From an uncultured Candidatus Bathyarchaeia archaeon (GTDB taxonomy: Archaea > Thermoproteota > Bathyarchaeia > Bathyarchaeales > Bathycorpusculaceae): DNA of 27,047 bases. Positions 17,118 to 27,047 of the stretch are shown piece after piece. The stretch's first letter is position 1; every line of letters begins with the position of its first letter. The stretch lies in the NCBI GenBank assembly GCA_964450845.1, contig CAYVGZ010000008.1, positions 1 to 27,047 of the forward strand, in the 5' to 3' direction. A program made the translations under genes and the position numbers. The notes under the pieces are model-generated. The model ran no database searches, was not told the DNA's origin, and saw only the letters and a list, made by a program, of their open reading frames with translations.

Positions 17118-17903
17118 CTACTTTTGCGTGACTTTCATGTACGCGAAAGTGGCAATCAAGGCGCAAACTAACGCGAATAACGTTATGTCTAAGAGCATAT
17201 AAGGCGTGAACTCTGGGTATCCCAAAAGGAAAGCCCTAGACAAGTCAGCACCGCAGCTTAGAGGGTTGTACTGCGCTATTAATACAAGCGGGTTGGGCAA
17301 GGCTTCTTGTATTAGAATCATTGGATAAAACACTGTGCTGCAGAAGAAAAGTACATAGTAGACTACGCCTCTAGCGGTAATGTATTTTTCGAAACTTTTT
17401 GTTGAAACTGCAAGTGTTATGCTAAGTCCTGAAGTTCCAATGGAGATAAGAAGCAAGGCGGCGATAATAACCAATAAATGTAGTGCAGAGGGAACTATGT
17501 TTGCATAGATGTACGTTATGACAAGGGTTGTTAGAAGAAGAGGAGCCATATAAACAACTCCTCTTAGACCGCCTGCCAAAGTTCTTCCCAAAGCTAGCTC
17601 CCATCTTTTTATTGGCAAGCTTAGCATGTAATCCGAAATTTCGCGTCTGACTTCCATGTTTATTTCTCTTCCAATCATAAAGGCCGCAGCGAAAAGTGCC
17701 GTGATGGTTAGACCTGGAGCGAAGAAAACAAAATATGAGACATACTCTTCTGTGATAATTGGGTTAACCATCCTCGTGTAAACTATTGCCATTATGAAGA
17801 GGTCTGCAAGGTTCATACTTATCATGCCAGCTATCCACCATTTGTAGCGAAAGAAATACCTGAAATCCCTCTCTACAACGCGTAATATCGCCTTTACTGC
17901 CAA
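17118..17903 (-). CDS. ABC-2 type exporter permease
   Basis: Six hydrophobic helices, PG motif, E...LP..R.EL..GR, FCSTVFYP and NPL. Overlaps the upstream permease by 10 nt. Confidence 0.88.
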   Translation of the reverse strand: MAVKAILRVVERDFRYFFRYKWWIAGMISMNLADLFIMAIVYTRMVNPIITEEYVSYFVFFAPGLTITALFAAAFMIGREINMEVRREISDYMLSLPIKRWELALGRTLAGGLRGVVYMAPLLLTTLVITYIYANIVPSALHLLVIIAALLLISIGTSGLSITLAVSTKSFEKYITARGVVYYVLFFCSTVFYPMILIQEALPNPLVLIAQYNPLSCGADLSRAFLLGYPEFTPYMLLDITLFALVCALIATFAYMKVTQK

Positions 17904-18679
17904 CCGCCTCCTTCGATTTTTCTCTCATGCAGAAATATGCCTAGAAATGTAAATAATGAAAAGAAGCAAACTATGCCGAGCACAGCTATTGCTGGAGAAG
18001 TCAGAAATGTAGATTCAATTCCAGCTCCCCATCGGAAAAGGTCGGCGGCAAATGTTAGAGGATTAAATCTTGCAATGTTTGCGTAGTAAGAGGGCATATA
18101 GGCTATCGGGTAAAGAGTGGTGCTTAACCTTACTATTAGAGCGTCAATAACCCCTAAAGATATGTCAAATCTGTCGGAGGATTTTATGCTTACAGCCAAA
18201 GTTATGCTAAAACCAGCTGTGCCAAATGTGAATAAGAAGAGGGATGCGAAAGCTACCAGAAGCTGTAGTGGACTTGAAATTCCAATCAGATATAAAATGA
18301 AAAGCATCATGGGACTAACATACATAAAACTTCTTAAGCCTCCTCCAATTGACCTCCCAATGACGAGTTCTTTGCGGGAAACTGGAACACTTAGCAGGTA
18401 CTCTATGACGCCGTGGTCTGCTTCCTCATAAATGTCGTATCCAATGAAGACGGCTGTTGAATAGAGCATTGTAATGATTATTCCAGCTGCATAAAAATTG
18501 AAGTAGTCGCCCCCAACTGCTAGCTGGACATCTTGATTAACCATTCTGTTAACAACTAAGCCGAAGAGGGCTATTTGGGCAATAAACCATATGGCACGCA
18601 TTATTAAGAGGAACTTGTATTGGAGAAACATTCGCATGTCTCTTTCGGCTACCGTCCAAACTTTTCTCAAGTTTATCAT
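17894..18679 (-). CDS. ABC-2 type exporter permease
   Basis: Same family pattern (G.IEYLLSVPVSRKEL..GR, STTLYP, NPL). Overlaps the ATPase stop by 4 nt. Confidence 0.88.
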   Translation of the reverse strand: MINLRKVWTVAERDMRMFLQYKFLLIMRAIWFIAQIALFGLVVNRMVNQDVQLAVGGDYFNFYAAGIIITMLYSTAVFIGYDIYEEADHGVIEYLLSVPVSRKELVIGRSIGGGLRSFMYVSPMMLFILYLIGISSPLQLLVAFASLFLFTFGTAGFSITLAVSIKSSDRFDISLGVIDALIVRLSTTLYPIAYMPSYYANIARFNPLTFAADLFRWGAGIESTFLTSPAIAVLGIVCFFSLFTFLGIFLHERKIEGGGWQ

Positions 18680-19632
18680 TTTCTTTGCGCCTCTTCGATT
18701 GTCAAGCCTGTGTAATGCGCAAATACGTCATCAAGGGATGGCTCGCTCATGCGAATTGATTTTACTTGCATCCGTGTTTTCATAAAAAACTCTGTAATTT
18801 GAGGCAGAACTTCTTCGGCTTGATTTAAGTAAATTTTTAAGTGATTTGGTTCGGTTGTTAAAACGTCGACGACTCGGTTTATCTTCTTCAATTCCTCAAG
18901 AGACTTCTTGGAAACATCTTTTTCCAAAATTACCTCTATTACGTCTCCACCAAGTATAGTGTCCTTCAGCTTTTTAGGCTCATCACAAACTAGAAGCTTC
19001 CCCTTATGCATTATCGCTACTCTGTCAGAAAGCACATCCGCCTCATAGAGTTCATTTGTTGCAAGCAGAATGGTTGAGCCTTCGTCTCTTAAAGCACGGA
19101 TCATATTCCAAATTCTGTGTTTACCCACGATGTCAATCTGAGCTGTAGGCTCGTCAACTATGGCTATTTTGGGTCTTTGAATCAGAATTTTAGCTATTTC
19201 AACTCTTTTGCGCATGCCACCTGAAAACGTATGTATTATCTTGTGCCGTTCGTTCCATAATTCAAGTTCCTCTAAAGCCCATCGGACTCTCTTTTTGCGT
19301 TCTTCACTTGATAATCCACATACTTTTGCATGCCAGTCCAAAACATCCCAAGGAGTGCTAACCCACAAAAGTTTGGGTTCTTGAAAGGATATGCCAACTA
19401 GGGTTCTAGATTTATCTGGTTCACGGGTTACATCATAAGAACCTATGAAGGCTGTGCCTTCTGTCGGTTTGATAACAGTTGTGAGCATGAGCAAGATTGT
19501 TGTTTTCCCCGCGCCGTTCGGACCCAGAAGCCCTAAGATTTCTCCATCTTCAATGTTTAAGTTTAGATGGTCAACTGCCACTAGGCTTGCGAATTTTTTT
19601 GTAAGGTTTTCAATTCGAATTATTGGCGCCAT
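18676..19632 (-). CDS. ABC exporter ATP-binding protein (DrrA-like)
   Basis: Walker A GPNGAGKTT, signature FSGGM, Walker B AIVDE and C-terminal EPSLDDVF. Likely ATG 19632 (ORF track 19668). Confidence 0.9.
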   Translation of the reverse strand: MAPIIRIENLTKKFASLVAVDHLNLNIEDGEILGLLGPNGAGKTTILLMLTTVIKPTEGTAFIGSYDVTREPDKSRTLVGISFQEPKLLWVSTPWDVLDWHAKVCGLSSEERKKRVRWALEELELWNERHKIIHTFSGGMRKRVEIAKILIQRPKIAIVDEPTAQIDIVGKHRIWNMIRALRDEGSTILLATNELYEADVLSDRVAIMHKGKLLVCDEPKKLKDTILGGDVIEVILEKDVSKKSLEELKKINRVVDVLTTEPNHLKIYLNQAEEVLPQITEFFMKTRMQVKSIRMSEPSLDDVFAHYTGLTIEEAQRK

Positions 19633-19683
19633 TTTTATACCAGACGCTGAAGCAGATACAATGACCAAGCAGCTAAATAAGAT

Positions 19684-20991
19684 TTATCGTGATAGTAAAT
19701 CCAAAGCAGTTTTTTCAGTTTTCTCCATTAGAGCTTGTTCATCTAAAGTTTTTACCTGTCTATTCTCCATCAAGATTTTTCCATCAACGATAACAGTGTC
19801 CACATCGCTTCCATGTGCAGAGTAAACGATGCTTGCGTAAATGTTGTGCAACGGTTTTAAGTGAGGCTTTGAAACGTCAACCAGAACTATGTCGGCTTTC
19901 TTACCTACTTCAAGGGAGCCGATGTTTTCTCCCAGTCCTAAGGCTTTAGCGCCGTTTATTGTTGCCATTTTTAAAACCTCGTAGGCTGGCATAGCTTCAG
20001 GGTTCTGATAGGTGAGTTTTTGAAGTAAAGCTGCAACCTTCATGGTTTCAAACATGTCAAGGGAATTATTACTAGCTGCTCCATCTGTTCCCAAACTCAC
20101 GTTTACACCCAAATCGGTTAAGTCCTTTATTTTTGCTGCGCCTAAACCAAGTTTCATGTTAGCCACAGGAACATAAACCACATTGACGCCACGTTTAGAC
20201 AGGATAAGCATATCGTCTCTTGACAGATTTACACAATGGGCGGCGAGAACATGCCCTCTCAAAAAGCCTATTTTGTCTAAAAATTCAACCTCGCCGAAAC
20301 CATATTTCTTCTCAAATTCCCCAAACATGGCTTTAGATTCAGCCAAATGCATGTGCACACCAACATTTAACTCCGAAGCCTTTTTACTGATTTTTGAGAG
20401 CAAACCTTGGCTACAACTGTAAGCCGAATGAGAACCAAGCATTGCTTTCACCCTATCATTAGCGTATCCGTTGAATCGTTTGGCAAAATCTACGCTTTCA
20501 GCAAGCATTTTTTCGCCACGCATCTTGCTTCCAGCTTCAAATATGCCTTGTGCCAAAACGCCTCTTAATCCGCTTTTTTCCGTTGCCTTTGCAATCATGC
20601 CTTCATGAAAATACATGTCAGCAAAACATGTAGTTCCACTTTTGATCATTTCCAAACAGCCTAAAAGGGCTCCAACATGCACGTCCTCCTGCCTAAGCTT
20701 AGCCTCTAAAGGCCAAATAGTTTGCTTCAGCCAAGTGCTCAACTCTTGATCTTCAGCTACTCCTCTAAACAGCGTCATGGGAACATGTGTGTGACAGTTA
20801 ATCAAGCCTGGCAGGGCAACTTTTCCTTTTGCATTTATTTTCACATCAGCTTCTACGCTGTTTACTGGTGCAGATTTGCCCACGAAAGCTACTTTCCCGT
20901 TCTTTATAAGTAGCATTCCATCCTTTATGCAGTCTTTGCCATTCATCGGCAAAATAATGCATTCATGAATCAGAATGTCTGCTTTTTTCAA
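19684..20991 (-). CDS. Amidohydrolase, MtaD/DadD-like (MTA/SAH/5'-deoxyadenosine deaminase family)
   Basis: PGLINCHTH, WL...IWPLE, GTTCFADMY, HMHLAE, AAHCV and GTDGAASNN. Likely TTG 20991; the extension to 21042 in the ORF track does not look homologous. Confidence 0.85.
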   Translation of the reverse strand: MKKADILIHECIILPMNGKDCIKDGMLLIKNGKVAFVGKSAPVNSVEADVKINAKGKVALPGLINCHTHVPMTLFRGVAEDQELSTWLKQTIWPLEAKLRQEDVHVGALLGCLEMIKSGTTCFADMYFHEGMIAKATEKSGLRGVLAQGIFEAGSKMRGEKMLAESVDFAKRFNGYANDRVKAMLGSHSAYSCSQGLLSKISKKASELNVGVHMHLAESKAMFGEFEKKYGFGEVEFLDKIGFLRGHVLAAHCVNLSRDDMLILSKRGVNVVYVPVANMKLGLGAAKIKDLTDLGVNVSLGTDGAASNNSLDMFETMKVAALLQKLTYQNPEAMPAYEVLKMATINGAKALGLGENIGSLEVGKKADIVLVDVSKPHLKPLHNIYASIVYSAHGSDVDTVIVDGKILMENRQVKTLDEQALMEKTEKTALDLLSR

Positions 20992-21039
20992 AGAGATACC
21001 CTTTATTTTAGAGAGTGAGATGACAATAAAGATTATACT

Positions 21040-21047
21040 CAACCAAC
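21040..21047 (-). repeat. Copy of the GTTGGTTG/CAACCAAC octamer
   Basis: CAACCAAC on the + strand between the NUDIX stop and the amidohydrolase start. Confidence 0.5.
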
Positions 21048-21054
21048 ATTACTT

Positions 21055-21471
21055 TTAATGTTGCGTTAGGCTTATGTTTAGTTTTCTCAAGGCTTCTTTG
21101 TTTTCCTTCCAGTGCAGCAATTGCAGAGCTTCTTGGAAACTGCACCATTGATATTCACTGTGCTCATTTCGGTCAAGCACTATCTCTTCCGAAGGAGAGA
21201 TTTCCACGCCATAAACATATTCTTGATTTAGGTTAGGGTCTGAAAATTCAAAATAGTAAAGGCTGTCTATTGCCCTGATGAATTTCTTCACTCCTGTTTC
21301 TTCAATTACCTCTCTGCGCAAGGCTTCCTCTCGAGTCTCTCCCTCTTCCAAGCCACCTGTAACAGGTTGCCAGAATCCATTTCTCTCAGGAGTTCTATTT
21401 AGCAGTAAATATTCTATTTTGTTGTCGTTTTTTCGGAATATTATGGCTTCAACCTGTATTGGCAACCGCAT
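21055..21471 (-). CDS. NUDIX hydrolase, NudB-like
   Basis: Complete Nudix box GGLEEGETREEALRREVIEETG preceded by FWQPVTG, and followed by EHSEYQW. Confidence 0.9.
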   Translation of the reverse strand: MRLPIQVEAIIFRKNDNKIEYLLLNRTPERNGFWQPVTGGLEEGETREEALRREVIEETGVKKFIRAIDSLYYFEFSDPNLNQEYVYGVEISPSEEIVLDRNEHSEYQWCSFQEALQLLHWKENKEALRKLNISLTQH

Positions 21472-21522
21472 GGAGTGAGAGATTGCAGCTAGGATTAATA
21501 TATGTTTTCAAGATTGTGTATG

Positions 21523-21554
21523 TTTTGGTTGGTTGGGGTAAAGCTTAATCCAAC
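21523..21554 (+). repeat. Repeat element A: TTTTGGTTGGTTGG with GTTG-N15-CAAC inverted arms
   Basis: The first 14 nt are identical to 22371-22384; CAAC lies at the same distance in both copies. Confidence 0.7.
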
Positions 21555-21664
21555 GACGCGCGAAAGCTGAGATTCATCTTCATGTAGCGATCGTGTGCGA
21601 GGTAAGTATAATACGATGATTCTTCTTAGTTGTTTTGTCCGCTTGTCTGCGAAGGTGAAGAGGG

Positions 21665-22336
21665 ATGATCAAGGCTGTGCTCTTCGATTTAGGAGGCACA
21701 TTGATACAGACGGCTGAGATTCCTGAGATTTTCAGGAGGATACTAAAGGTTTTTGGCATCGAGGTTTCTTACGAGGAAATTTCAGATGCGCATGAAGCGA
21801 ACAAGGCTGAACTCGATGTTGCCGCGGGACAGATACGATGCGGCATGGAGTTTTGGACTGAGTTTAATTCGCGGTTTCTGAGAAGACTGGGCATTGAGGA
21901 TAATGTGGAAACGCTTGCTAAGAACATAACGAACCTGTGGTGGGATAACGCTGACCTGCGATTCTATCCTGACGTGCTTGAGGCGTTGAGTTGGCTTAAG
22001 GCGAGAAACATCAAGATAGGCGTGGTTACTAATGCCTTGAGGGAAGATTACGGACAGATTCTTCATAGGTTGGGAGCAACACGTTTGTTTGACGTTGTCG
22101 TGGGCATTGATGACTGCAAGAGGGCTAAGCCTGACAAGCAGATTTTCTTCTATGCTATTGACAGGCTGGGTGTTAAGCCGGATGAAGCGTTGTTTGTGGG
22201 GAATGAACTGGAAACAGATTACAAGGGGGCAAAGGGAGCTGGACTGAAAGCGCTGTTTATTGACAGGGATAGAAAGAACAACGGTAAGATCAATAGGCTG
22301 ACTACGCTGAAGGAGTTGCGCCTCCACATATCTTGA
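21665..22336 (+). CDS. HAD-IA family hydrolase
   Basis: FDLGGTL, VVTN, KPD..IF and FVGNELETDYKGAKGAG; GGTGAAGAGGG upstream. Confidence 0.88.
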   Translation: MIKAVLFDLGGTLIQTAEIPEIFRRILKVFGIEVSYEEISDAHEANKAELDVAAGQIRCGMEFWTEFNSRFLRRLGIEDNVETLAKNITNLWWDNADLRFYPDVLEALSWLKARNIKIGVVTNALREDYGQILHRLGATRLFDVVVGIDDCKRAKPDKQIFFYAIDRLGVKPDEALFVGNELETDYKGAKGAGLKALFIDRDRKNNGKINRLTTLKELRLHIS

Positions 22337-22370
22337 CGGATGTTGTAAATGGTAGTGGGTCAGCCGTTAC

Positions 22371-22406
22371 TTTTGGTTGGTTGGATAAAACTCCGCCTCA
22401 ACCAAC
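22371..22406 (+). repeat. Repeat element B: TTTTGGTTGGTTGG with perfect GTTGGTTG-N15-CAACCAAC inverted repeat
   Basis: Read directly: arms at 22376-22383 and 22399-22406. Confidence 0.75.
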
Positions 22407-22421
22407 AAAGGACTTGATGAC

Positions 22422-22592
22422 CTATTCAATGTCGCATTTCGAAACCTTGATTCCAAGCTCAAAAGCCTGTTTCATTTCTGCTTGATCACTCTTGACGCTT
22501 CCAAGCTTGTTGTCATCATGAGCATAGTAAATGATCCCCGCCGCAACACTGGCAGAGGCAATCGCAATGGAAACTGTCTGTATGTCAACCAT
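22422..22592 (-). CDS. 56-aa ORF absent from the ORF track; probable chimeric gene remnant
   Basis: Hand translation gives MVDIQTVSIAIASASVAAGIIYYAHDDNKLGSVKSDQAEMKQAFELGIKVSKCDIE*; AGGTG lies upstream of the ATG. Confidence 0.6.
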   Translation of the reverse strand: MVDIQTVSIAIASASVAAGIIYYAHDDNKLGSVKSDQAEMKQAFELGIKVSKCDIE

Positions 22593-22650
22593 ACCTAACA
22601 CCTATGAAAGCAGCGTTGTTTCGGCTCAGCTATAACTTTTCCGCAACTAC

Positions 22651-22661
22651 GTTGGTTGGTT
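22651..22661 (+). repeat. Repeat element C: GTTGGTTGGTT
   Basis: Third same-orientation copy of the core, between the mini-ORF and the GNAT gene. Confidence 0.6.
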
Positions 22662-22725
22662 AGACAAATGTTATACTGCAAACCCAAAAAACTATTATGC
22701 TCTGGCTGAAGTAATTTAAGAAGAG

Positions 22726-23361
22726 ATGATGCGGATGTTCGAGTTTGCTGCCCTCAGATTTAGACCTTTAGAGAAGGATGACCTCAAACTGCTTCATGTT
22801 TGGGAAAACGATTTCGAGCTTATGATGTATAGCAGAAGCAACCCGCTGAACGTGGCTAGCATGGCGCAGCTGGAAGAAAGATTTGAGGAATGGATGAAGG
22901 AGAAGAGGAATTTCTATTTTATTGTGGAAAATATGGAATCCAAAGTGCCCATAGGTTTCGCCTCAATACGCACAGAGGTATGGGGCAACGTGCTAGGCGC
23001 GGACGTTGGCACTTATATCGGCAAAAAGGAACTGTGGGAAAAAGGCTTTGGAAAAAAAATAACAGCGGCTTTGCTTGAAATGTCCTTCATCCACCTGAAC
23101 ATGGAGCGCTGCCAAGCGTGGAGCGTAGAATACAACACGCGAGCCCATAAAGTGCTTGAGTTCTGCGGGTTCAAGAAAGGTGGAGTCGTGCGGAACACGG
23201 TGTATGTGGCAGGCAAGAAATGGGGCTCCTTCCATTTCGACATATTACGCGAAGAATACATGAATATACGGATGGACCTATTGAAGAAAATGCTTGGAGA
23301 ACAAGTAGACACCTATCTAGCGAAAACTCAGCCAGCTCTTAGACCGCGTGTAAATGGTTAA
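22726..23361 (+). CDS. GNAT N-acetyltransferase, RimJ/RimL family
   Basis: LRFRPLE..DL..L..W, IG.A, VGTYIG..E.W.KGFG, N.RA.K..E.CGFK.EG-like pattern. Confidence 0.88.
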   Translation: MMRMFEFAALRFRPLEKDDLKLLHVWENDFELMMYSRSNPLNVASMAQLEERFEEWMKEKRNFYFIVENMESKVPIGFASIRTEVWGNVLGADVGTYIGKKELWEKGFGKKITAALLEMSFIHLNMERCQAWSVEYNTRAHKVLEFCGFKKGGVVRNTVYVAGKKWGSFHFDILREEYMNIRMDLLKKMLGEQVDTYLAKTQPALRPRVNG

Positions 23362-23431
23362 GATCATGTTGCGCAGTATTGCTGTTTGCGTAGGTCATTG
23401 TAAGTTAAGAGATATTAGGGGAATTCAGAAG

Positions 23432-23848
23432 CTAAATCAATGGTTTTGATTCTTGAATTTTCTTTAAGAGCGGACGCAAAGCTGGTTGCAGATTATGATC
23501 CTCTGTCAAAGTGCCTTTTGGCACTCCAGGCGTGCCTATTTTTCTGCATATGAAGTTAAGAGAATCCTCAGTGAAGTTTAACAGGCTCTGCCCTTCGGTT
23601 GTCAGTTTGTAAACTTTTCTTGGCCGTTCGCTGTTCATGTTCCATTCGCTTTTCACATACCCCTTCTTCTCCAGCGAGTTTAGGAGCGGGTAAATGGTGC
23701 TTGGTCCAAAATACACTCCAAAGGTTTTGCGAATTCTTGTAATAACTTGGTAACCATGCATGGGATTTGAGCTTAGGAACTGTAGTACTATAAGGTCTAG
23801 GAGCCCCTTCATCAATTTGATTTGAACTTCTTTTGAGTTGTTTCCCAT
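23432..23848 (-). CDS. PadR family transcriptional regulator
   Basis: PMHGYQVI, GPSTIYPLL..LE..GYV and RPRKVY.LT..G. Likely ATG 23848 (ORF track 23902). Confidence 0.9.
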   Translation of the reverse strand: MGNNSKEVQIKLMKGLLDLIVLQFLSSNPMHGYQVITRIRKTFGVYFGPSTIYPLLNSLEKKGYVKSEWNMNSERPRKVYKLTTEGQSLLNFTEDSLNFICRKIGTPGVPKGTLTEDHNLQPALRPLLKKIQESKPLI

Positions 23849-23901
23849 ATTTTTCCCTTCTGTATTTGTGTCCAACAGTTTTTCTGTTGAACGAGGATAC
23901 A

Positions 23902-23923
23902 ATATGTCCTTTTTCGGACATAT
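23902..23923. promoter_or_regulatory. Perfect palindromic operator ATATGTCC-N6-GGACATAT
   Basis: 8-bp inverted repeat read directly. It contains ATGT/ACAT half-sites and sits just downstream of a minus-strand TATA box. Confidence 0.7.
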
Positions 23924-23930
23924 CTCAAGA

Positions 23931-23959
23931 CTTTATAGAGCATAAACGAAGATATAAAG
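23931..23959. promoter_or_regulatory. Back-to-back TATAAAG boxes (divergent promoters)
   Basis: CTTTATA at 23931-23937 (TATAAAG on the minus strand) and TATAAAG at 23953-23959, between the divergent padR genes. Confidence 0.5.
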
Positions 23960-24074
23960 GTTCATGCTTACCCCAAACATAAAAAAGCATACCGAAGCAT
24001 AGCAAAATATTCCATTTTATACATAACGTAAATAAGCCCAAACATGAACCAGTTCAAAATAGAACACGTAGAGA

Positions 24075-24422
24075 GTGAAAAAATTGGCAGAAAACTTTAG
24101 AAAAGAAATTGTTCAACGCATAACCAAAAACCTGCTCGACATCCAAATTTTGAGGCTTATCCAGATGCAACCCATGTGGGGCTACAAAATAAAAAAACAA
24201 GCAGAAACAAAATTCGACGTAAAACTAAGACACGGAGCATTATACCCACTACTTAATGGAATGGAACAGAAAGGCTTCCTAACAAGCCGAAAACAACAAC
24301 AAGGAGGAAGAACAAGAAAAGTGTACACAATAACAAAGAGCGGTGAAGAATACGTAGAAACATACAACAGCATACTAAAAGAACAAATACAAAAACAAGA
24401 CATAAAAGCATCTTCACTTTAA
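24075..24422 (+). CDS. PadR family transcriptional regulator
   Basis: PMWGYKI, GALYPLL..ME.KG.L and RTRKVY.IT..G. Confidence 0.9.
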   Translation: MKKLAENFRKEIVQRITKNLLDIQILRLIQMQPMWGYKIKKQAETKFDVKLRHGALYPLLNGMEQKGFLTSRKQQQGGRTRKVYTITKSGEEYVETYNSILKEQIQKQDIKASSL

Positions 24423-24467
24423 CATTAACCAACTTCTAATCTAGAGCTTTTTAGACAGGAGAAGCTC

Positions 24468-25511
24468 ATGGAAAAAAATAGAAAGTCGGAATCAAAAGGC
24501 GAAAAACTGTTTGAACAAGTTACAAGAATATTGGAGAAAGAGGGAGCAAAAGGCTGGAAACTGGCGCAAGAAACTCTACTAAAACAGAAAACAAAAAACA
24601 AGCAACTTCAGGAAGCGATAAACTATACTATGTTAGAGGGGAAGCCAGACTTTTTTAGACCAGCGTTTGTTGCTCTTTGTTGCAAAGCCGTCGAAGGTGA
24701 TCCAGAAGTCACAATTCCTTGCGGCGCCTCACTAGTATTGTTTAGTAGAGCTATCGGGATTCATGATGACGTAATTGATAATTTGAAAAAGAGAAACAAA
24801 CGTCTTACTCTTTTTGGAAAATTCGGTAAAGACTTTGCATTAATTCTGAGTGACATCCTTTTGTTCAAAGGTTTCACGCTAATGAGGAAAAGCATTGAGA
24901 TAGGTATTCCTCAGCAAAGTGTAGTGCAAATTCTTGACGTGATTGATCGCATATGGTTTGAACAGGGCGAAGGTGAATTCTTCGAGATCGGGGCCAAGAG
25001 ACAAACGACTGTTTCTACTCAAGAATGTATGGCCAAAATCAGAATGAGGGCTTCGGAATTGGAAGCAATTGCCCGTATAGGCGGAATATTGGGCGGTGGT
25101 TCACAGAAGGAAATTGTAGCTTTGGGCGGATTTGGCAGGCATCTTGGAATAATGTCTATTCTAAGAGAGGAAATAATCGACATGTTGGAGTTTAATGTGC
25201 TGAGACACAGAATACGATATGAATCACTTCCATTACCCCTAATACACGCGATGCAAGATTCAAAAGCAAGATCACAGATAGCTTCACTGATTTTCAAGAA
25301 AAAACTTACTAACACAGATTTACGGGCAATATCGAATATTTCGGATAGAGTGGGGAGCATCGGCTATGTTTCTAGTCAAATCCATGCAATGAGAACCAAG
25401 GCAATCTCAAATTTAGAATCACTTCAGACAGAAAGCGCAGAACTTAAACTTATGGTCGCTTCGCTTCTACTAAATTCCAAGTATCGTAAGCCAAACGCAA
25501 GATCTACGTAG
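24468..25511 (+). CDS. Polyprenyl-synthetase-fold prenyltransferase with intact FARM and degenerate SARM
   Basis: GK..RP-like motif, FARM HDDVID, FG...A.L..D, GEGE, G..LG and SARM-position REEIID. Confidence 0.82.
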   Translation: MEKNRKSESKGEKLFEQVTRILEKEGAKGWKLAQETLLKQKTKNKQLQEAINYTMLEGKPDFFRPAFVALCCKAVEGDPEVTIPCGASLVLFSRAIGIHDDVIDNLKKRNKRLTLFGKFGKDFALILSDILLFKGFTLMRKSIEIGIPQQSVVQILDVIDRIWFEQGEGEFFEIGAKRQTTVSTQECMAKIRMRASELEAIARIGGILGGGSQKEIVALGGFGRHLGIMSILREEIIDMLEFNVLRHRIRYESLPLPLIHAMQDSKARSQIASLIFKKKLTNTDLRAISNISDRVGSIGYVSSQIHAMRTKAISNLESLQTESAELKLMVASLLLNSKYRKPNARST

Positions 25512-25566
25512 CCCAATCGTACCATGATCTCGGAAGAACTTTAATCTCCTTCTTCTTCTTAGCCAT
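25504..25566 (-). CDS. Unannotated 20-aa peptide MAKKKKEIKVLPRSWYDWAT
   Basis: ATG at 25566 to TAG at 25504, preceded by GGGGAAGG and a TATA box (TTAAATAA, 25608-25601) with an A-rich BRE-like stretch. Confidence 0.62.
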   Translation of the reverse strand: MAKKKKEIKVLPRSWYDWAT

Positions 25567-25576
25567 AAACCTTCCC

Positions 25577-25636
25577 CGAACTGTATTTGTGTCGAACTGT
25601 TTATTTAAGCGTTTTGTTCTACAGATGAACAGTTCC
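25577..25636. promoter_or_regulatory. Promoter of the peptide gene with repeated CGAACTGT boxes
   Basis: CGAACTGT at 25577-25584 and 25593-25600 (16-nt period), TATA at 25601-25608, and an inverted 7/8 copy ACAGTTCC at 25629-25636. Confidence 0.55.
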
Positions 25637-25685
25637 AGAATCTGACCAATAATATTAATTCTCAATTCTTAAGCTTAATCTAGAG

Positions 25686-26939
25686 GTGTCAAAGAAGTAC
25701 ATACCTAAAGTGGAGAGCATGTTCTCTAGAATCTCACGCTTCCATGGTCTTAGATTAGAGTATTTGATCGCCTTCGTTCTTCTGTTTAACGCTTTCTCTT
25801 GGTATTTCTTTTGTAACTTGACGATAAATAATATTAGGGAAATTTATAGTGAAGGAAGTTTCGAAAGTCTGAGCCTACAATTAGCATATCCATCTTCCAT
25901 CATAATCTCCGCTATTCTAGCCTCGTTATCACTTATTTATGTTCGTAAAAAGCACTTTTTCATTTCTTGGATAATTGTAGGCATCGGGTCTTCTATCTCC
26001 TCAGCATTTCTTCCAGAGTCTTCTCTCGTGGTGAAACTTGCCATCACTGTTTTTATGGGAAGTTCACTCGGCATCGGCATGCCCATGTGTCTAAACTATT
26101 TCATGGAACTCACACCAATAGAAAAGAGAGGAAAGATAGGTGGAATAACATTTCTCGCCATCATAACGAGCGCAGTATTCTTTATTGCGACTGTGCCCAT
26201 GTTAGATCCAACAACAAACGCCATAGTTCTTGCGACATGGAGAGGATGGAGCCTCGTTGTCCTTTATTTTATTCGTGAACACAAGGGGACACTTAAAGAC
26301 AATGGTGAAAGGAAAAAAGCCTATTGCGAATTTCCTTGGAATCGAACATTTTTTCTATACTTTACGACGTGGTTTATGTTTACTTTAGTAAGTGGGTTTG
26401 GGGCAAACATTGTTGCTTTCTATGGTGGCGACTATCGTATGCAACTCAAACTAATTGAACCGGCTATTAGTGGTTTTTCAGCGCTGATAACCGGTGCATT
26501 CAGCGATTGGATTGGACGAAAGAGAGTGATAACGTTTGGCTTTGTCTCTTTAGGATTAGCGTATGCGGTATTAGGATTGACTCCTGAAATGTGGTTTTCA
26601 TGGTTTTTCTTTTACATAATGGACGGTATAGCGCTAGGGCTTCTTTGGGTGATGTTTATCGTTGTATTATGGGGCGAAATATCACGCCACGGAATTGAAA
26701 AGTCATATGCGATAGGTGCAGCCCCTTATTTTCTAACTGGAATAGTTTCTTCGCTCTTAGCTCCATTTACATCCTTTATTCCAAGAACAAGCGCCTTTTC
26801 GTTAGCGGCTTTGTTTTTGTTCGTGGCAGTAATTCCCTTGATGTACGTGCCTGAGACTTTGCCTGAAAAAAAGATCAAAGAAAGAGAGCTCAAAATGTAT
26901 ATTGGTGAAGCGAAGAAGATTAAAGAAAAATACGCTTAA
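25686..26939 (+). CDS. MFS transporter
   Basis: About 12 hydrophobic helices, TP.EKRGK.GG in the N-half and motif A GAFSDWIGRKR in the C-half. Alternative start ATG 25719. Confidence 0.85.
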   Translation: MSKKYIPKVESMFSRISRFHGLRLEYLIAFVLLFNAFSWYFFCNLTINNIREIYSEGSFESLSLQLAYPSSIIISAILASLSLIYVRKKHFFISWIIVGIGSSISSAFLPESSLVVKLAITVFMGSSLGIGMPMCLNYFMELTPIEKRGKIGGITFLAIITSAVFFIATVPMLDPTTNAIVLATWRGWSLVVLYFIREHKGTLKDNGERKKAYCEFPWNRTFFLYFTTWFMFTLVSGFGANIVAFYGGDYRMQLKLIEPAISGFSALITGAFSDWIGRKRVITFGFVSLGLAYAVLGLTPEMWFSWFFFYIMDGIALGLLWVMFIVVLWGEISRHGIEKSYAIGAAPYFLTGIVSSLLAPFTSFIPRTSAFSLAALFLFVAVIPLMYVPETLPEKKIKERELKMYIGEAKKIKEKYA

Positions 26940-26956
26940 GAATAAGGATGTCTCTA

Positions 26957-26963
26957 TTTTTTT
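26957..26963 (+). terminator. Oligo-T (T7) putative archaeal terminator
   Basis: T7 tract 18 nt after the MFS stop codon. Confidence 0.4.
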
Positions 26964-27047
26964 GGAAAAGTATGTTCTTTCACATCATACTAACAGGCGA
27001 GTGCAATTTAGAATGCAAATATTGTTTCGGCGAAGCACTAGAGGACA

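What the first reader, a model, noticed from the sequence alone, without database searches (positions are those of the whole stretch)
23432..26939. Candidate archaeal ComQ/ComX-like prenylated-peptide (RiPP or quorum-sensing) system
Seen: padR (-), padR (+), pseudo-SARM prenyltransferase (+), 20-aa peptide (-) and MFS transporter (+) in one compact block. The peptide's last Trp is third from the C-terminus (W-A-T). Established: in Bacillus, ComQ (isoprenyl-synthase fold, FARM plus pseudo-SARM) geranylates or farnesylates a Trp three to four residues from the C-terminus of ComX to make a secreted pheromone. Inference: the enzyme prenylates W18 (or W15), the MFS exports or imports the lipopeptide, and PadR proteins replace the ComP/ComA two-component readout. 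I know of no such system in archaea. Caveats: ComX precursors are longer and co-oriented with comQ, there is no histidine kinase or protease in the window, and MFS export of peptides is not established.
Basis: partly seen in the sequence, partly recalled or inferred. Interest (0 to 1): 0.88.

Follow-up and report, generated by a model that had tools for sequence, protein, structure and literature searches.

The report
Archaeal prenyltransferase with conserved Trp micro-peptide
An unannotated 20-codon gene for a basic, tryptophan-ending peptide sits tail-to-tail with a remodelled isoprenoid-synthase-like enzyme and beside a membrane transporter in many Bathyarchaeia genomes. The three evolve together as one fast-changing unit, which makes this the best candidate so far for an archaeal lipid-tagged peptide signal or antimicrobial.

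Summary
The 20-aa minus-strand ORF (25504-25566) recurs tail-to-tail with the prenyltransferase (PT) gene in 18 of the 24 loci first compared (a 19th is ambiguous), and in 3 of 4 further metagenome contigs plus a cut-off candidate in the fourth. This holds even where the PT is only about 30% identical. The peptides share a Lys/Arg-rich N-terminus, an invariant Arg (mostly Pro-x-Arg) and usually a Trp 4-5 residues later (W18 here). All 21 tested have a TATA-like box and 17 of 21 a Shine-Dalgarno-like site.

The PT has an IPPS fold and keeps FARM and an acidic second motif (E-E-x-x-D here). It has lost the isopentenyl-diphosphate (IPP)-binding residues, so it is unlikely to elongate chains.

PT, peptide and MFS co-diverge as one hypervariable module between conserved PadR and radical-SAM genes, much like Bacillus comQXP pherotypes.

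The next gene, cut by the contig end, is a TIGR04084 radical SAM/SPASM enzyme, but it is not obligately linked to the module.

Against ComQ membership:
- no Asn pseudo-SARM here;
- no conserved Gln upstream of the second motif;
- no histidine kinase in the window;
- a convergent, leader-poor precursor.

Prenylation itself is untested. Verdict: a new archaeal variant of trans-IDS-like peptide prenylation systems, plausible but unproven.

The parts
23432..23902 (-). padRa, a PadR-family regulator (likely start at the ATG 23848). It is highly conserved across loci, 60-91% identity.
   Evidence: PF03551 66.9 bits. Identity matrix. Present divergently from padRb in the loci.
23884..24074 (.). padRa/padRb divergent promoter region, holding TGTTGAAC (23885) and the palindrome GTTC-N6-GAAC (24052-24065).
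   Evidence: The motif counts in the window are not above chance; only their placement is suggestive.
24075..24422 (+). padRb, a short PadR-family regulator. It lies 45 nt upstream of the PT and overlaps the PT start in L143, so the two are probably co-transcribed.
   Evidence: PF03551 66.4 bits.
24468..25511 (+). IPPS-fold prenyltransferase (P0001, 347 aa). FARM D100-D101-x-x-D104; second motif E234-E235-x-x-D238; IPP-binding residues lost.
   Evidence: PF00348 68.6 bits. NCBIfam best hit 89.7 bits against a 468 cut-off. AF2 pLDDT 92.3. 1WY0 TM 0.82. Column counts.
25504..25566 (-). Micro-ORF of 20 codons plus stop: Lys-rich N-terminus, Pro12-Arg13, Trp15 and Trp18, C-terminal Trp-Ala-Thr. 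Proposed precursor peptide.
   Evidence: The Arg codon varies synonymously (AGA/CGA/AGG) and length changes are in whole codons.
25567..25640 (-). Promoter and 5' region of the micro-ORF. SD-like GGGGAAGG (25570-25577); TATA box TTAAATAA (25601-25608); TGT-W-S-AAC-type half-sites on both sides of the TATA box (25580-25598 and 25615-25623), within a 20-nt imperfect inverted repeat (25578-25597 / 25616-25635).
   Evidence: TATA-like box in 21 of 21 loci and SD-like site in 17 of 21, against 12% and 11% at control ATGs.
25719..26939 (+). MFS transporter (406 aa from the ATG at 25719; the ORF opens at GTG 25686). Divergently transcribed from the micro-ORF and co-diverging with the PT.
   Evidence: PF07690 46.2 bits. 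Start inferred. PT~MFS Mantel r 0.88.
26948..27047 (+). 5' end of a TIGR04084 radical SAM/SPASM gene (CxxxCxxC present), cut by the contig end. The rest lies on G000:C41:12509-13609. A conserved neighbour, not an obligate part.
   Evidence: 306 bits against a 225 cut-off on the L116 orthologue; 319 bits.

Best explanation
The block is an accessory cassette of Bathyarchaeia built around three parts that evolve together.
1. An unannotated gene for a 12-22-aa cationic peptide with its own regulated promoter.
2. A prenyltransferase derived from an archaeal GGPPS-type enzyme. It still binds and ionises an allylic prenyl diphosphate (FARM, acidic second motif, Lys/Arg equivalents of the donor-binding residues), but its IPP site has been rebuilt.
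3. An MFS transporter.

The most likely mechanism is as follows. The enzyme uses the peptide instead of IPP as acceptor and prenylates the conserved Trp near the C-terminus (W18 here), as ComQ, StheQ and PalQ do in bacteria. The basic N-terminal part ending in Pro-x-Arg serves as a short recognition or processing segment. The MFS exports, or otherwise handles, the lipopeptide. The PadR pair represses the peptide promoter through half-sites flanking its TATA box.

Shown here:
- the gene's conservation and expression signals;
- the remodelled enzyme;
- the co-divergence of the three parts.

Inferred:
- prenyl transfer to the peptide and the site of modification;
- cleavage after the Arg;
- the direction of transport;
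- control by PadR;
- the biological role (signal or antimicrobial).
For: 1. Micro-ORF conservation at the same convergent position in 18 of the 24 loci first compared. These span PT identities from 80% down to about 30%, and a 19th locus (L133) is ambiguous. Three of four further contigs carry one and the fourth has a cut-off candidate. Background is 1.6%.
2. Coding signature: an invariant Arg with synonymous codon changes, an invariant TGG, and whole-codon indels. TATA-like box in 21 of 21 and SD-like site in 17 of 21, against about 12% at control ATGs. No Rfam family and no RNA structure.
3. Enzyme, over 45 family members:
   - FARM is invariant;
   - the second motif is [D32/N7/E5][E35/D10]-x-x-D45;
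   - the Lys of GGKR is Asp/Glu in 44 of 45;
   - the second Arg of RRG is lost;
   - the GK-x-T loop is deleted;
   - the donor-side Lys/Arg positions are kept.
   The IPPS fold is modelled with confidence. The genome has a separate canonical synthase at 213 bits.
4. Module behaviour:
   - Within one genus, the flanking rSAM is 88% identical while the PT is 41% and the MFS 43% (L129 against L135).
   - Between the window and L125, PadRa is 80% and rSAM 70%, but PT is 34% and MFS 36%.
   - Mantel correlations: peptide~PT r 0.77, peptide~MFS 0.71, PT~MFS 0.88, against peptide~rSAM 0.22.
5. Literature: every characterised trans-IDS-like peptide prenyltransferase modifies a Trp near the C-terminus of a neighbouring small gene product.
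6. In G094 the MFS and rSAM remain next to each other, while neither the PT nor the micro-ORF is found beside them.
Against: - No biochemical or expression data exist.
- The enzyme lacks two features stressed for known Trp prenyltransferases, the Asn at the first pseudo-SARM position and the Gln one turn upstream. In ComQ and StheQ, changing that Asn to Asp cuts activity by 90-98%. Many family members have a fully canonical D-D-x-x-D.
- Three peptides have no Trp; two end in Phe/Tyr-rich tails and one in R-A-G-P.
- Five of 24 loci have the PT but no recognisable micro-ORF.
- The precursors are far shorter than ComX, StheX or PalX, and convergent rather than co-oriented.
- The loci are related, so the counts and Mantel tests overstate independence.
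Confidence: 0.45

Rival explanations
1. The peptide is real and belongs to the module, but it is not the prenyl acceptor. It would act unmodified, either as a cationic Trp/Arg-rich antimicrobial or signal exported by the MFS, or as a small regulator bound to the PT or the MFS. The PT would prenylate a small molecule such as free tryptophan or an indole, as Ord1 does.
For: - Composition resembles Arg/Trp-rich cationic peptides (own knowledge).
- Ord1 shows that IPPS-fold enzymes can take free Trp.
- The PT lacks the Asn and Gln features of the peptide-modifying enzymes.
- Some PT loci lack the peptide.
- Peptide similarity tracks the MFS about as well as it tracks the PT.
Against: - The tail-to-tail position is tied to the PT 3' end across deep divergence.
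- In G094 the MFS stays while neither the PT nor the micro-ORF is found beside it.
- The conserved Trp lies at a fixed distance from the invariant Arg, which suggests a recognised site.
Confidence: 0.25
2. The peptide is the substrate of the neighbouring TIGR04084 radical SAM/SPASM enzyme, for example for a Trp-Arg or cyclophane cross-link. The cluster would then be a radical-SAM RiPP cluster in which the PT is secondary.
For: - The rSAM follows the MFS in the window and in 12 of the loci compared.
- After TIGR04084, its best NCBIfam matches are peptide maturases such as PapB, YhhB and DynA.
- Trp-Arg cross-linking radical SAM enzymes exist (WprB; listed).
Against: - The rSAM is single-copy and matches above the family cut-off in 66 of the 151 Bathyarchaeia genomes searched, many of them without this PT.
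- It was not found in three near-complete cassette genomes (G124, G077, G136) and lies elsewhere in G090, G118, G098 and G130.
- It is 56-88% identical across loci where the peptides are unalignable outside Pro-x-Arg.
Confidence: 0.08
3. The micro-ORF is a cis-regulatory device. It could be a short translated leader or arrest peptide whose transcript runs antisense into the PT 3' end, or simply a marker of a divergent promoter region. The peptide itself would have no function.
For: - Convergent overlap of 3-26 nt with the PT in several loci.
- The strongest nucleotide conservation lies in the promoter and operator region rather than in the ORF.
- One peptide ends I-R-A-G-P, like the SecM arrest motif (own knowledge).
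Against: - No gene lies downstream on its strand.
- There is amino-acid-level conservation (invariant Arg through synonymous codons, Trp, basic N-terminus) with whole-codon indels.
- In many loci the ORF does not overlap the PT at all, with gaps up to 37 nt.
Confidence: 0.07
4. The PT is an ordinary chain-elongating prenyl diphosphate synthase paralogue, and the neighbouring small ORF is irrelevant.
For: Public annotations call homologues geranylgeranyl pyrophosphate synthase. PF00348 is matched above its cut-off.
Against: - The IPP-binding residues are replaced, including a Lys to Asp/Glu charge reversal in 44 of 45 members.
- Scores are far below every equivalog cut-off.
- A canonical synthase exists elsewhere in the genome.
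- The micro-ORF is conserved far beyond chance.
Confidence: 0.03

Closest known systems
ComQ/ComX of Bacillus subtilis and StheQ/StheX of Sphaerobacter thermophilus (ComQ-family, trans-IDS-like peptide Trp prenyltransferases)
   Same: - IPPS all-helical fold with an intact FARM and a modified second Asp-rich motif.
- A small neighbouring gene whose product carries Trp 2-4 residues from the C-terminus.
- A hypervariable enzyme/peptide/membrane-partner module between conserved genes, like comQXP pherotypes (own knowledge).
   Different: - Archaeal, and closest to archaeal GGPPS rather than to ComQ.
- The second motif is [D/E/N][E/D]-x-x-D (E-E-x-x-D here), not N-D-x-x-D.
- No Gln upstream of the second motif.
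- The precursor is 12-22 aa rather than 55-69 aa, convergent rather than co-oriented, and has its own promoter.
- The partner is an MFS with PadR regulators instead of a ComP/ComA two-component system.
PalQ/PalX of Paenibacillus alvei
   Same: An isoprenoid-synthase-superfamily enzyme that prenylates a Trp at the extreme C-terminus of a small neighbouring gene product. Several peptides here end in Trp or Trp plus one residue.
   Different: - PalX has an NHLP leader of about 70 aa, and its cluster has a histidine kinase.
- PalQ is remote from trans-IDS sequences, whereas this family still matches PF00348.
Ord1 (PDB 9V4G/9V4J), an IPPS-fold farnesyltransferase acting on free tryptophan
   Same: IPPS fold repurposed for an indole acceptor. 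It is found among the structural and profile matches (108.9 bits; TM 0.65-0.68).
   Different: - No closer to this family than ordinary synthases are.
- Uses a Gln/Asp proton relay that is absent here.
- No peptide partner.
Canonical archaeal GGPP synthase (for example Pyrococcus horikoshii, PDB 1WY0)
   Same: Best sequence-profile match (158 bits) and best structural match (TM 0.82). FARM and the donor-side basic residues are conserved.
   Different: The IPP-binding Lys, Arg and Gln and the GK-x-T loop are replaced or deleted. The family is accessory, polymorphic and tied to a micro-ORF and an MFS.

Membership tests
ComQ-type (trans-IDS-like) peptide tryptophan prenyltransferase system | All-alpha IPPS fold | tested here: met
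   AF2 model with pLDDT 92.3. Foldseek top match 1WY0 at TM 0.82; Ord1 also matched.
ComQ-type (trans-IDS-like) peptide tryptophan prenyltransferase system | Intact first Asp-rich motif (FARM) for Mg2+ and the prenyl donor | tested here: met
   D100 in 45/45, D101 in 44/45 and D104 in 45/45 family members.
ComQ-type (trans-IDS-like) peptide tryptophan prenyltransferase system | Pseudo-SARM N-D-x-x-D, with the Asn needed for activity (StheQ N215, ComQ N186) | tested here: not met
   The window protein reads E-E-I-I-D. In the family the first position is D in 32, N in 7 and E in 5 of 45.
ComQ-type (trans-IDS-like) peptide tryptophan prenyltransferase system | Conserved Gln one helical turn upstream of the second motif | tested here: not met
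   Position 231 is Ile in 29, Leu in 6 and Thr in 4, with no Gln among the six commonest residues listed. StheQ Q212A keeps 94% activity, so this feature may not be essential.
ComQ-type (trans-IDS-like) peptide tryptophan prenyltransferase system | Neighbouring small gene whose product has Trp near the C-terminus | tested here: met
   Present in 18 of the 24 loci first compared, and in 3 of 4 further contigs with a cut-off candidate in the fourth. It is convergent and only 12-22 aa long, and three peptides lack Trp.
ComQ-type (trans-IDS-like) peptide tryptophan prenyltransferase system | Sequence membership in the ComQ family (InterPro IPR033965) | not testable with these tools
   No ComQ model appeared in the Pfam or NCBIfam results, and no ComQ or StheQ chain was among the PDB matches listed.
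ComQ-type (trans-IDS-like) peptide tryptophan prenyltransferase system | Two-component ComP/ComA-type readout next to the genes | tested here: not met
   No histidine kinase was found among the window proteins scanned. PadR regulators and an MFS stand in that place.
ComQ-type (trans-IDS-like) peptide tryptophan prenyltransferase system | Prenyl transfer to the peptide's Trp | not testable with these tools
   This needs an enzyme assay with mass spectrometry.
Canonical chain-elongating trans-isoprenyl diphosphate synthase (GGPPS/FPPS) | Pfam PF00348 match above the gathering score | tested here: met
   68.6 bits against a cut-off of 27.
Canonical chain-elongating trans-isoprenyl diphosphate synthase (GGPPS/FPPS) | Score above an NCBIfam equivalog cut-off | tested here: not met
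   Best hits are IdsA at 89.7 bits against 468 and GGPP_syn at 78.8 against 500.
Canonical chain-elongating trans-isoprenyl diphosphate synthase (GGPPS/FPPS) | IPP-binding residues: the Lys of GGKR, the second Arg of RRG, the Gln of FQ and the GK-x-T loop | tested here: not met
   The Lys is Asp/Glu in 44 of 45 members. The Arg is replaced by Asn/Asp/Gly and the Gln by Ile/Leu. There is a 6-residue deletion, and GK is replaced by E-S. The assignment of roles to these residues rests on own knowledge of FPPS structures.
TIGR04084 radical SAM/SPASM family (the neighbouring gene) | HMM score above the curated cut-off, and a CxxxCxxC motif | tested here: met
   306 bits (L116 orthologue) and 319 bits (own genome, contig C41), against a cut-off of 225. 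The motif is visible at 26948-27047.
Radical-SAM RiPP cluster with this peptide as precursor | Maturase and precursor co-occur obligately | tested here: not met
   There are cassettes without the rSAM in the genome or with it elsewhere, and many genomes with the rSAM but without the PT.
PadR-family transcription regulators | PF03551 match above the gathering score | tested here: met
   66.9 and 66.4 bits against a cut-off of 27.

The most novel reading that the evidence does not exclude
This is the first peptide-pheromone (quorum-sensing) system of archaea. A leader-poor 12-22-aa peptide is Trp-prenylated by a GGPPS-derived enzyme that arose independently of ComQ. It is exported and re-sensed through a co-evolving MFS and lipid-binding PadR repressors. 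It diversifies into mutually incompatible 'pherotypes' within genera of Bathyarchaeia.
Probability: 0.2. Interest if true: 0.92.

Novelty: new variant of a known kind. Interest (0 to 1): 0.78.

Why it matters
Bathyarchaeia are among the most abundant uncultured archaea in sediments and hot springs, and almost nothing is known about how they interact with each other or with neighbours. No ribosomal lipopeptide and no peptide signal has been described for any archaeon in the literature I could search.

If the peptide is prenylated, four things follow:
- the IPPS fold would have been recruited to peptide Trp prenylation a second time, from a different ancestor;
- the system would offer an unusually small (12-22 aa) and therefore easily synthesised substrate set for lipidation biocatalysis;
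- the TIGR04084 question (an orphan archaeal radical SAM) would gain a testable neighbour;
- population genetics would gain an archaeal analogue of pherotype or bacteriocin-type diversification.

Even if prenylation fails, the work establishes a conserved, unannotated micro-protein family with a regulated promoter.

Tried and rejected
- Complex prediction of the PT alignment with the peptide alignment gave no verdict (score 0.30, mark 0.32; the peptide is under the 30-residue calibration range). It is not evidence either way.
- The look-up of sequencing runs listed no RNA holder, only DNA runs from hot-spring and sediment metagenomes. Expression could not be examined and read laying was not used.
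- The search for related loci on genome contigs with the single protein returned only remote bacterial synthases at 22-31% identity, which were useless for synteny. The genome search and the look-up of encoding contigs were used instead.
- Rfam search of 23300-27047 found nothing at E up to 1. The micro-ORF transcript folds no better than shuffles, z 0.56.
- Longer homologues (P0124, P0168, P0143, P0204) were checked for informative fusions. Only polyprenyl_synt and a weak, below-cut-off HEPPP_synt_1 match were found.
- Operator motifs: GTTC-N5-9-GAAC has 2 matches and TGT-W-S-AAC has 4 matches in the window. Neither is more frequent than in shuffles, so only their placement in the cassette promoters is suggestive.
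- TIGR04084 appears in no searchable paper.
- The listing of cluster members gave no taxon names for the distant homologues.
- The 53-aa TTG-started reading of the micro-ORF was rejected. Upstream of the ATG the loci differ by non-triplet indels and conserve promoter elements instead.

Full report
**What is in the window**

The stretch 23432-27047 holds the following, in order.
- A PadR gene on the minus strand and a second PadR gene on the plus strand.
- A 347-aa protein, 45 nt after the second PadR gene, that matches Pfam polyprenyl_synt only weakly (68.6 bits).
- A 20-codon ORF on the minus strand, whose stop overlaps the enzyme's stop by 8 nt.
- An MFS transporter.
- The first 33 codons of a radical SAM gene, cut by the contig end.

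The homologues named by a source are Bathyarchaeota/Bathyarchaeia, and the best DNA holder is a hot-spring metagenome. The genome (1.64 Mb, 93% complete) has one canonical polyprenyl synthase elsewhere (213 bits) besides this divergent one. No histidine kinase was found in the window. Two peptidases (M24, M3) lie more than 15 kb away.

**The micro-ORF is a real, conserved gene**

I collected related loci from metagenome contigs and from GTDB representative genomes. I then looked on the strand opposite the enzyme at its 3' end.
- A short ORF of the same kind is there in 18 of the 24 loci first compared, and a 19th (L133) is ambiguous. Three of four further contigs also carry one, and the fourth holds a cut-off candidate. 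The enzyme in these loci ranges from 80% down to about 30% identity.
- The peptides are 12-22 aa long. In alignment A2 they share a run of Lys/Arg after the start, one invariant Arg usually preceded by Pro-x, and in most a Trp four or five residues later. That Trp corresponds to W18 of the window peptide.
- Three peptides have no Trp.
- A simple score built from these features reaches 8 or more in 1.6% of random 210-nt windows of the same loci, against 18 of 24 at the site. The score was defined after seeing the peptides and the loci are related, so the formal probabilities are overstated. The contrast is nevertheless very large.
- In the close relatives the Arg codon changes among AGA, CGA and AGG, TGG is fixed, and length differences are whole codons.
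- All 21 ORFs tested have a TATA-like box about 40-50 nt upstream, and 17 have a Shine-Dalgarno-like site. At control ATGs the figures are 12% and 11%.
- Two copies of a TGT-W-S-AAC-like element flank the TATA box, and they are the best conserved non-coding bases of the spacer.
- There is no Rfam match and no RNA structure above shuffles.
- None of the public gene calls on these contigs includes the ORF.

**The enzyme**

An AlphaFold model built from 46 family sequences is confident (pLDDT 92.3). It has the IPPS fold, and the best solved match is Pyrococcus GGPPS 1WY0 (TM 0.82; profile score 158 bits). I compared family columns with the genome's own canonical synthase and with 1WY0.

Kept:
- FARM is invariant.
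- The second motif is [D/N/E][E/D]-x-x-D, and reads E-E-I-I-D in the window.
- The positions equivalent to the donor-binding Lys/Arg are kept as Lys or Arg.

Lost:
- The Lys of the GGKR motif is Asp or Glu in 44 of 45 sequences.
- The second Arg of RRG is gone.
- The Gln of FQ is Ile or Leu.
- The GK-x-T loop carries a six-residue deletion.

By established knowledge of FPPS and GGPPS structures, the lost residues bind IPP. I therefore infer an enzyme that still ionises an allylic diphosphate but no longer takes IPP. The Lys to Asp/Glu charge reversal, together with the invariant Arg of the peptide, suggests that the peptide's Arg may occupy the former diphosphate site. This is inference only. 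About 103 clusters at 50% identity match at E up to 1e-30 in 1.8 billion representatives, so this is a moderately large and very diverse family.

**A co-diverging module**

The order PT, micro-ORF, MFS is kept in most loci. The two PadR genes precede it in the window's clade and in several others, and a radical SAM gene follows it in 12 of the loci compared. Identities are strikingly uneven.

| Comparison | Flanking genes | Module genes |
|---|---|---|
| L129 vs L135 (same genus) | rSAM 88% | PT 41%, MFS 43% |
| L129 vs L127 (another genus) | rSAM 73% | PT 69% |
| window vs L125 (same family) | PadRa 80%, rSAM 70% | PT 34%, MFS 36% |
| window vs another family (L120) | PadRa 71% | PT 57% |

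- Peptide similarity follows the PT (Mantel r 0.77) and the MFS (0.71), not the rSAM (0.22). PT and MFS correlate at 0.88.
- Within genus g4 the cassette is present in three genomes. In G094 it is reduced to MFS plus rSAM, with neither the PT nor the micro-ORF beside them. In G127 it is missing beside the rSAM.

This is the behaviour of an accessory specificity module. It resembles the comQ-comX-comP polymorphism of Bacillus (own knowledge) or a toxin/immunity locus.

**The radical SAM gene**

It belongs to TIGR04084, an uncharacterised archaeal radical SAM/SPASM family. The L116 orthologue scores 306 bits, and the genome's own copy, continued on contig C41, scores 319 bits, against a cut-off of 225.

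Its next-best NCBIfam matches are peptide maturases, which made it a serious candidate modifier. The distribution argues otherwise.
- It is single-copy and matches above the family cut-off in 66 of the 151 class members searched, many of them without this PT.
- It was not found in three near-complete genomes that have the cassette.
- In four others it lies elsewhere in the genome.

I therefore treat it as a conserved neighbour in this family rather than a core part.

**Comparison with known systems**

The literature held here describes IPPS-superfamily enzymes that prenylate Trp near the C-terminus of a small neighbouring gene product: ComQ/ComX, StheQ/StheX and PalQ/PalX. It also describes Ord1, which acts on free Trp. 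A 2026 review states that all characterised trans-IDS-like peptide prenyltransferases target Trp.

The present system works like these in outline, but it fails two membership features. It has no Asn at the first pseudo-SARM position, where Asn to Asp nearly abolishes activity in ComQ and StheQ. It has no Gln one turn upstream, although StheQ Q212A stays active. It is closest to archaeal GGPPS, so it is most simply an independent recruitment of the fold. I found no paper describing such a system in archaea.

**What remains open**

- The complex prediction gave no verdict.
- No RNA data are available.
- Prenylation, the modified residue, cleavage after the Arg, the direction of MFS transport, PadR control and the biological role are all inferred.

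I put 0.45 on the full prenylated-peptide mechanism. I am much more confident, at roughly 0.9, that the micro-ORF is a translated gene, and at about 0.8 that it is functionally tied to the PT and the MFS.

Noticed in passing
window 26948-27047 and G000:C41:12509-13609 (L140): The radical SAM/SPASM gene is split between the end of this contig and the end of contig C41. The two contigs are therefore neighbours in the genome.
   Followed up: partly
search over 151 Bathyarchaeia genomes: TIGR04084 is a single-copy, highly conserved (56-88% identity) orphan radical SAM/SPASM. It matches above the family cut-off in 66 of the 151 class members searched, and in Sulfolobus acidocaldarius among the controls. 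Its substrate is unknown and is probably a conserved cellular target.
   Followed up: partly
L122 7013-9062 and L123 6998-9074: Two tandem paralogues of the PT. The first keeps a canonical D-D-x-x-D second motif. The second, next to the micro-ORF, has lost it.
   Followed up: no
window 17118-23361: The left flank (two ABC-2 permeases, a DrrA-type ATPase and an amidohydrolase) is syntenic with other loci, where the amidohydrolase directly abuts padRa. Here three accessory genes (NUDIX, HAD, GNAT) are inserted between them.
   Followed up: partly
L147 (G094:C146) and L146 (G127:C28): Within one genus the cassette is whole in some genomes. In G094 it is reduced to MFS plus rSAM next to a large unrelated gene (aminoacyl-tRNA-synthetase-like by eye, not scanned). 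In G127 it is missing beside the rSAM. This is presence/absence polymorphism.
   Followed up: partly
window 23904-23945 (+): A 13-codon ATG ORF directly follows a copy of the TGTTGAAC...ATACA element in the padR intergenic region and contains an S-R-L-Y stretch. It is probably chance, since it lacks the basic N-terminus.
   Followed up: no
L123, L127, L143 micro-ORFs: Three peptides of the family have no Trp. Two end in Phe/Tyr-rich tails and one ends I-R-A-G-P, identical to the end of the SecM arrest motif.
   Followed up: no
They are distant from the block, and their linkage to it was not examined.
   Followed up: no
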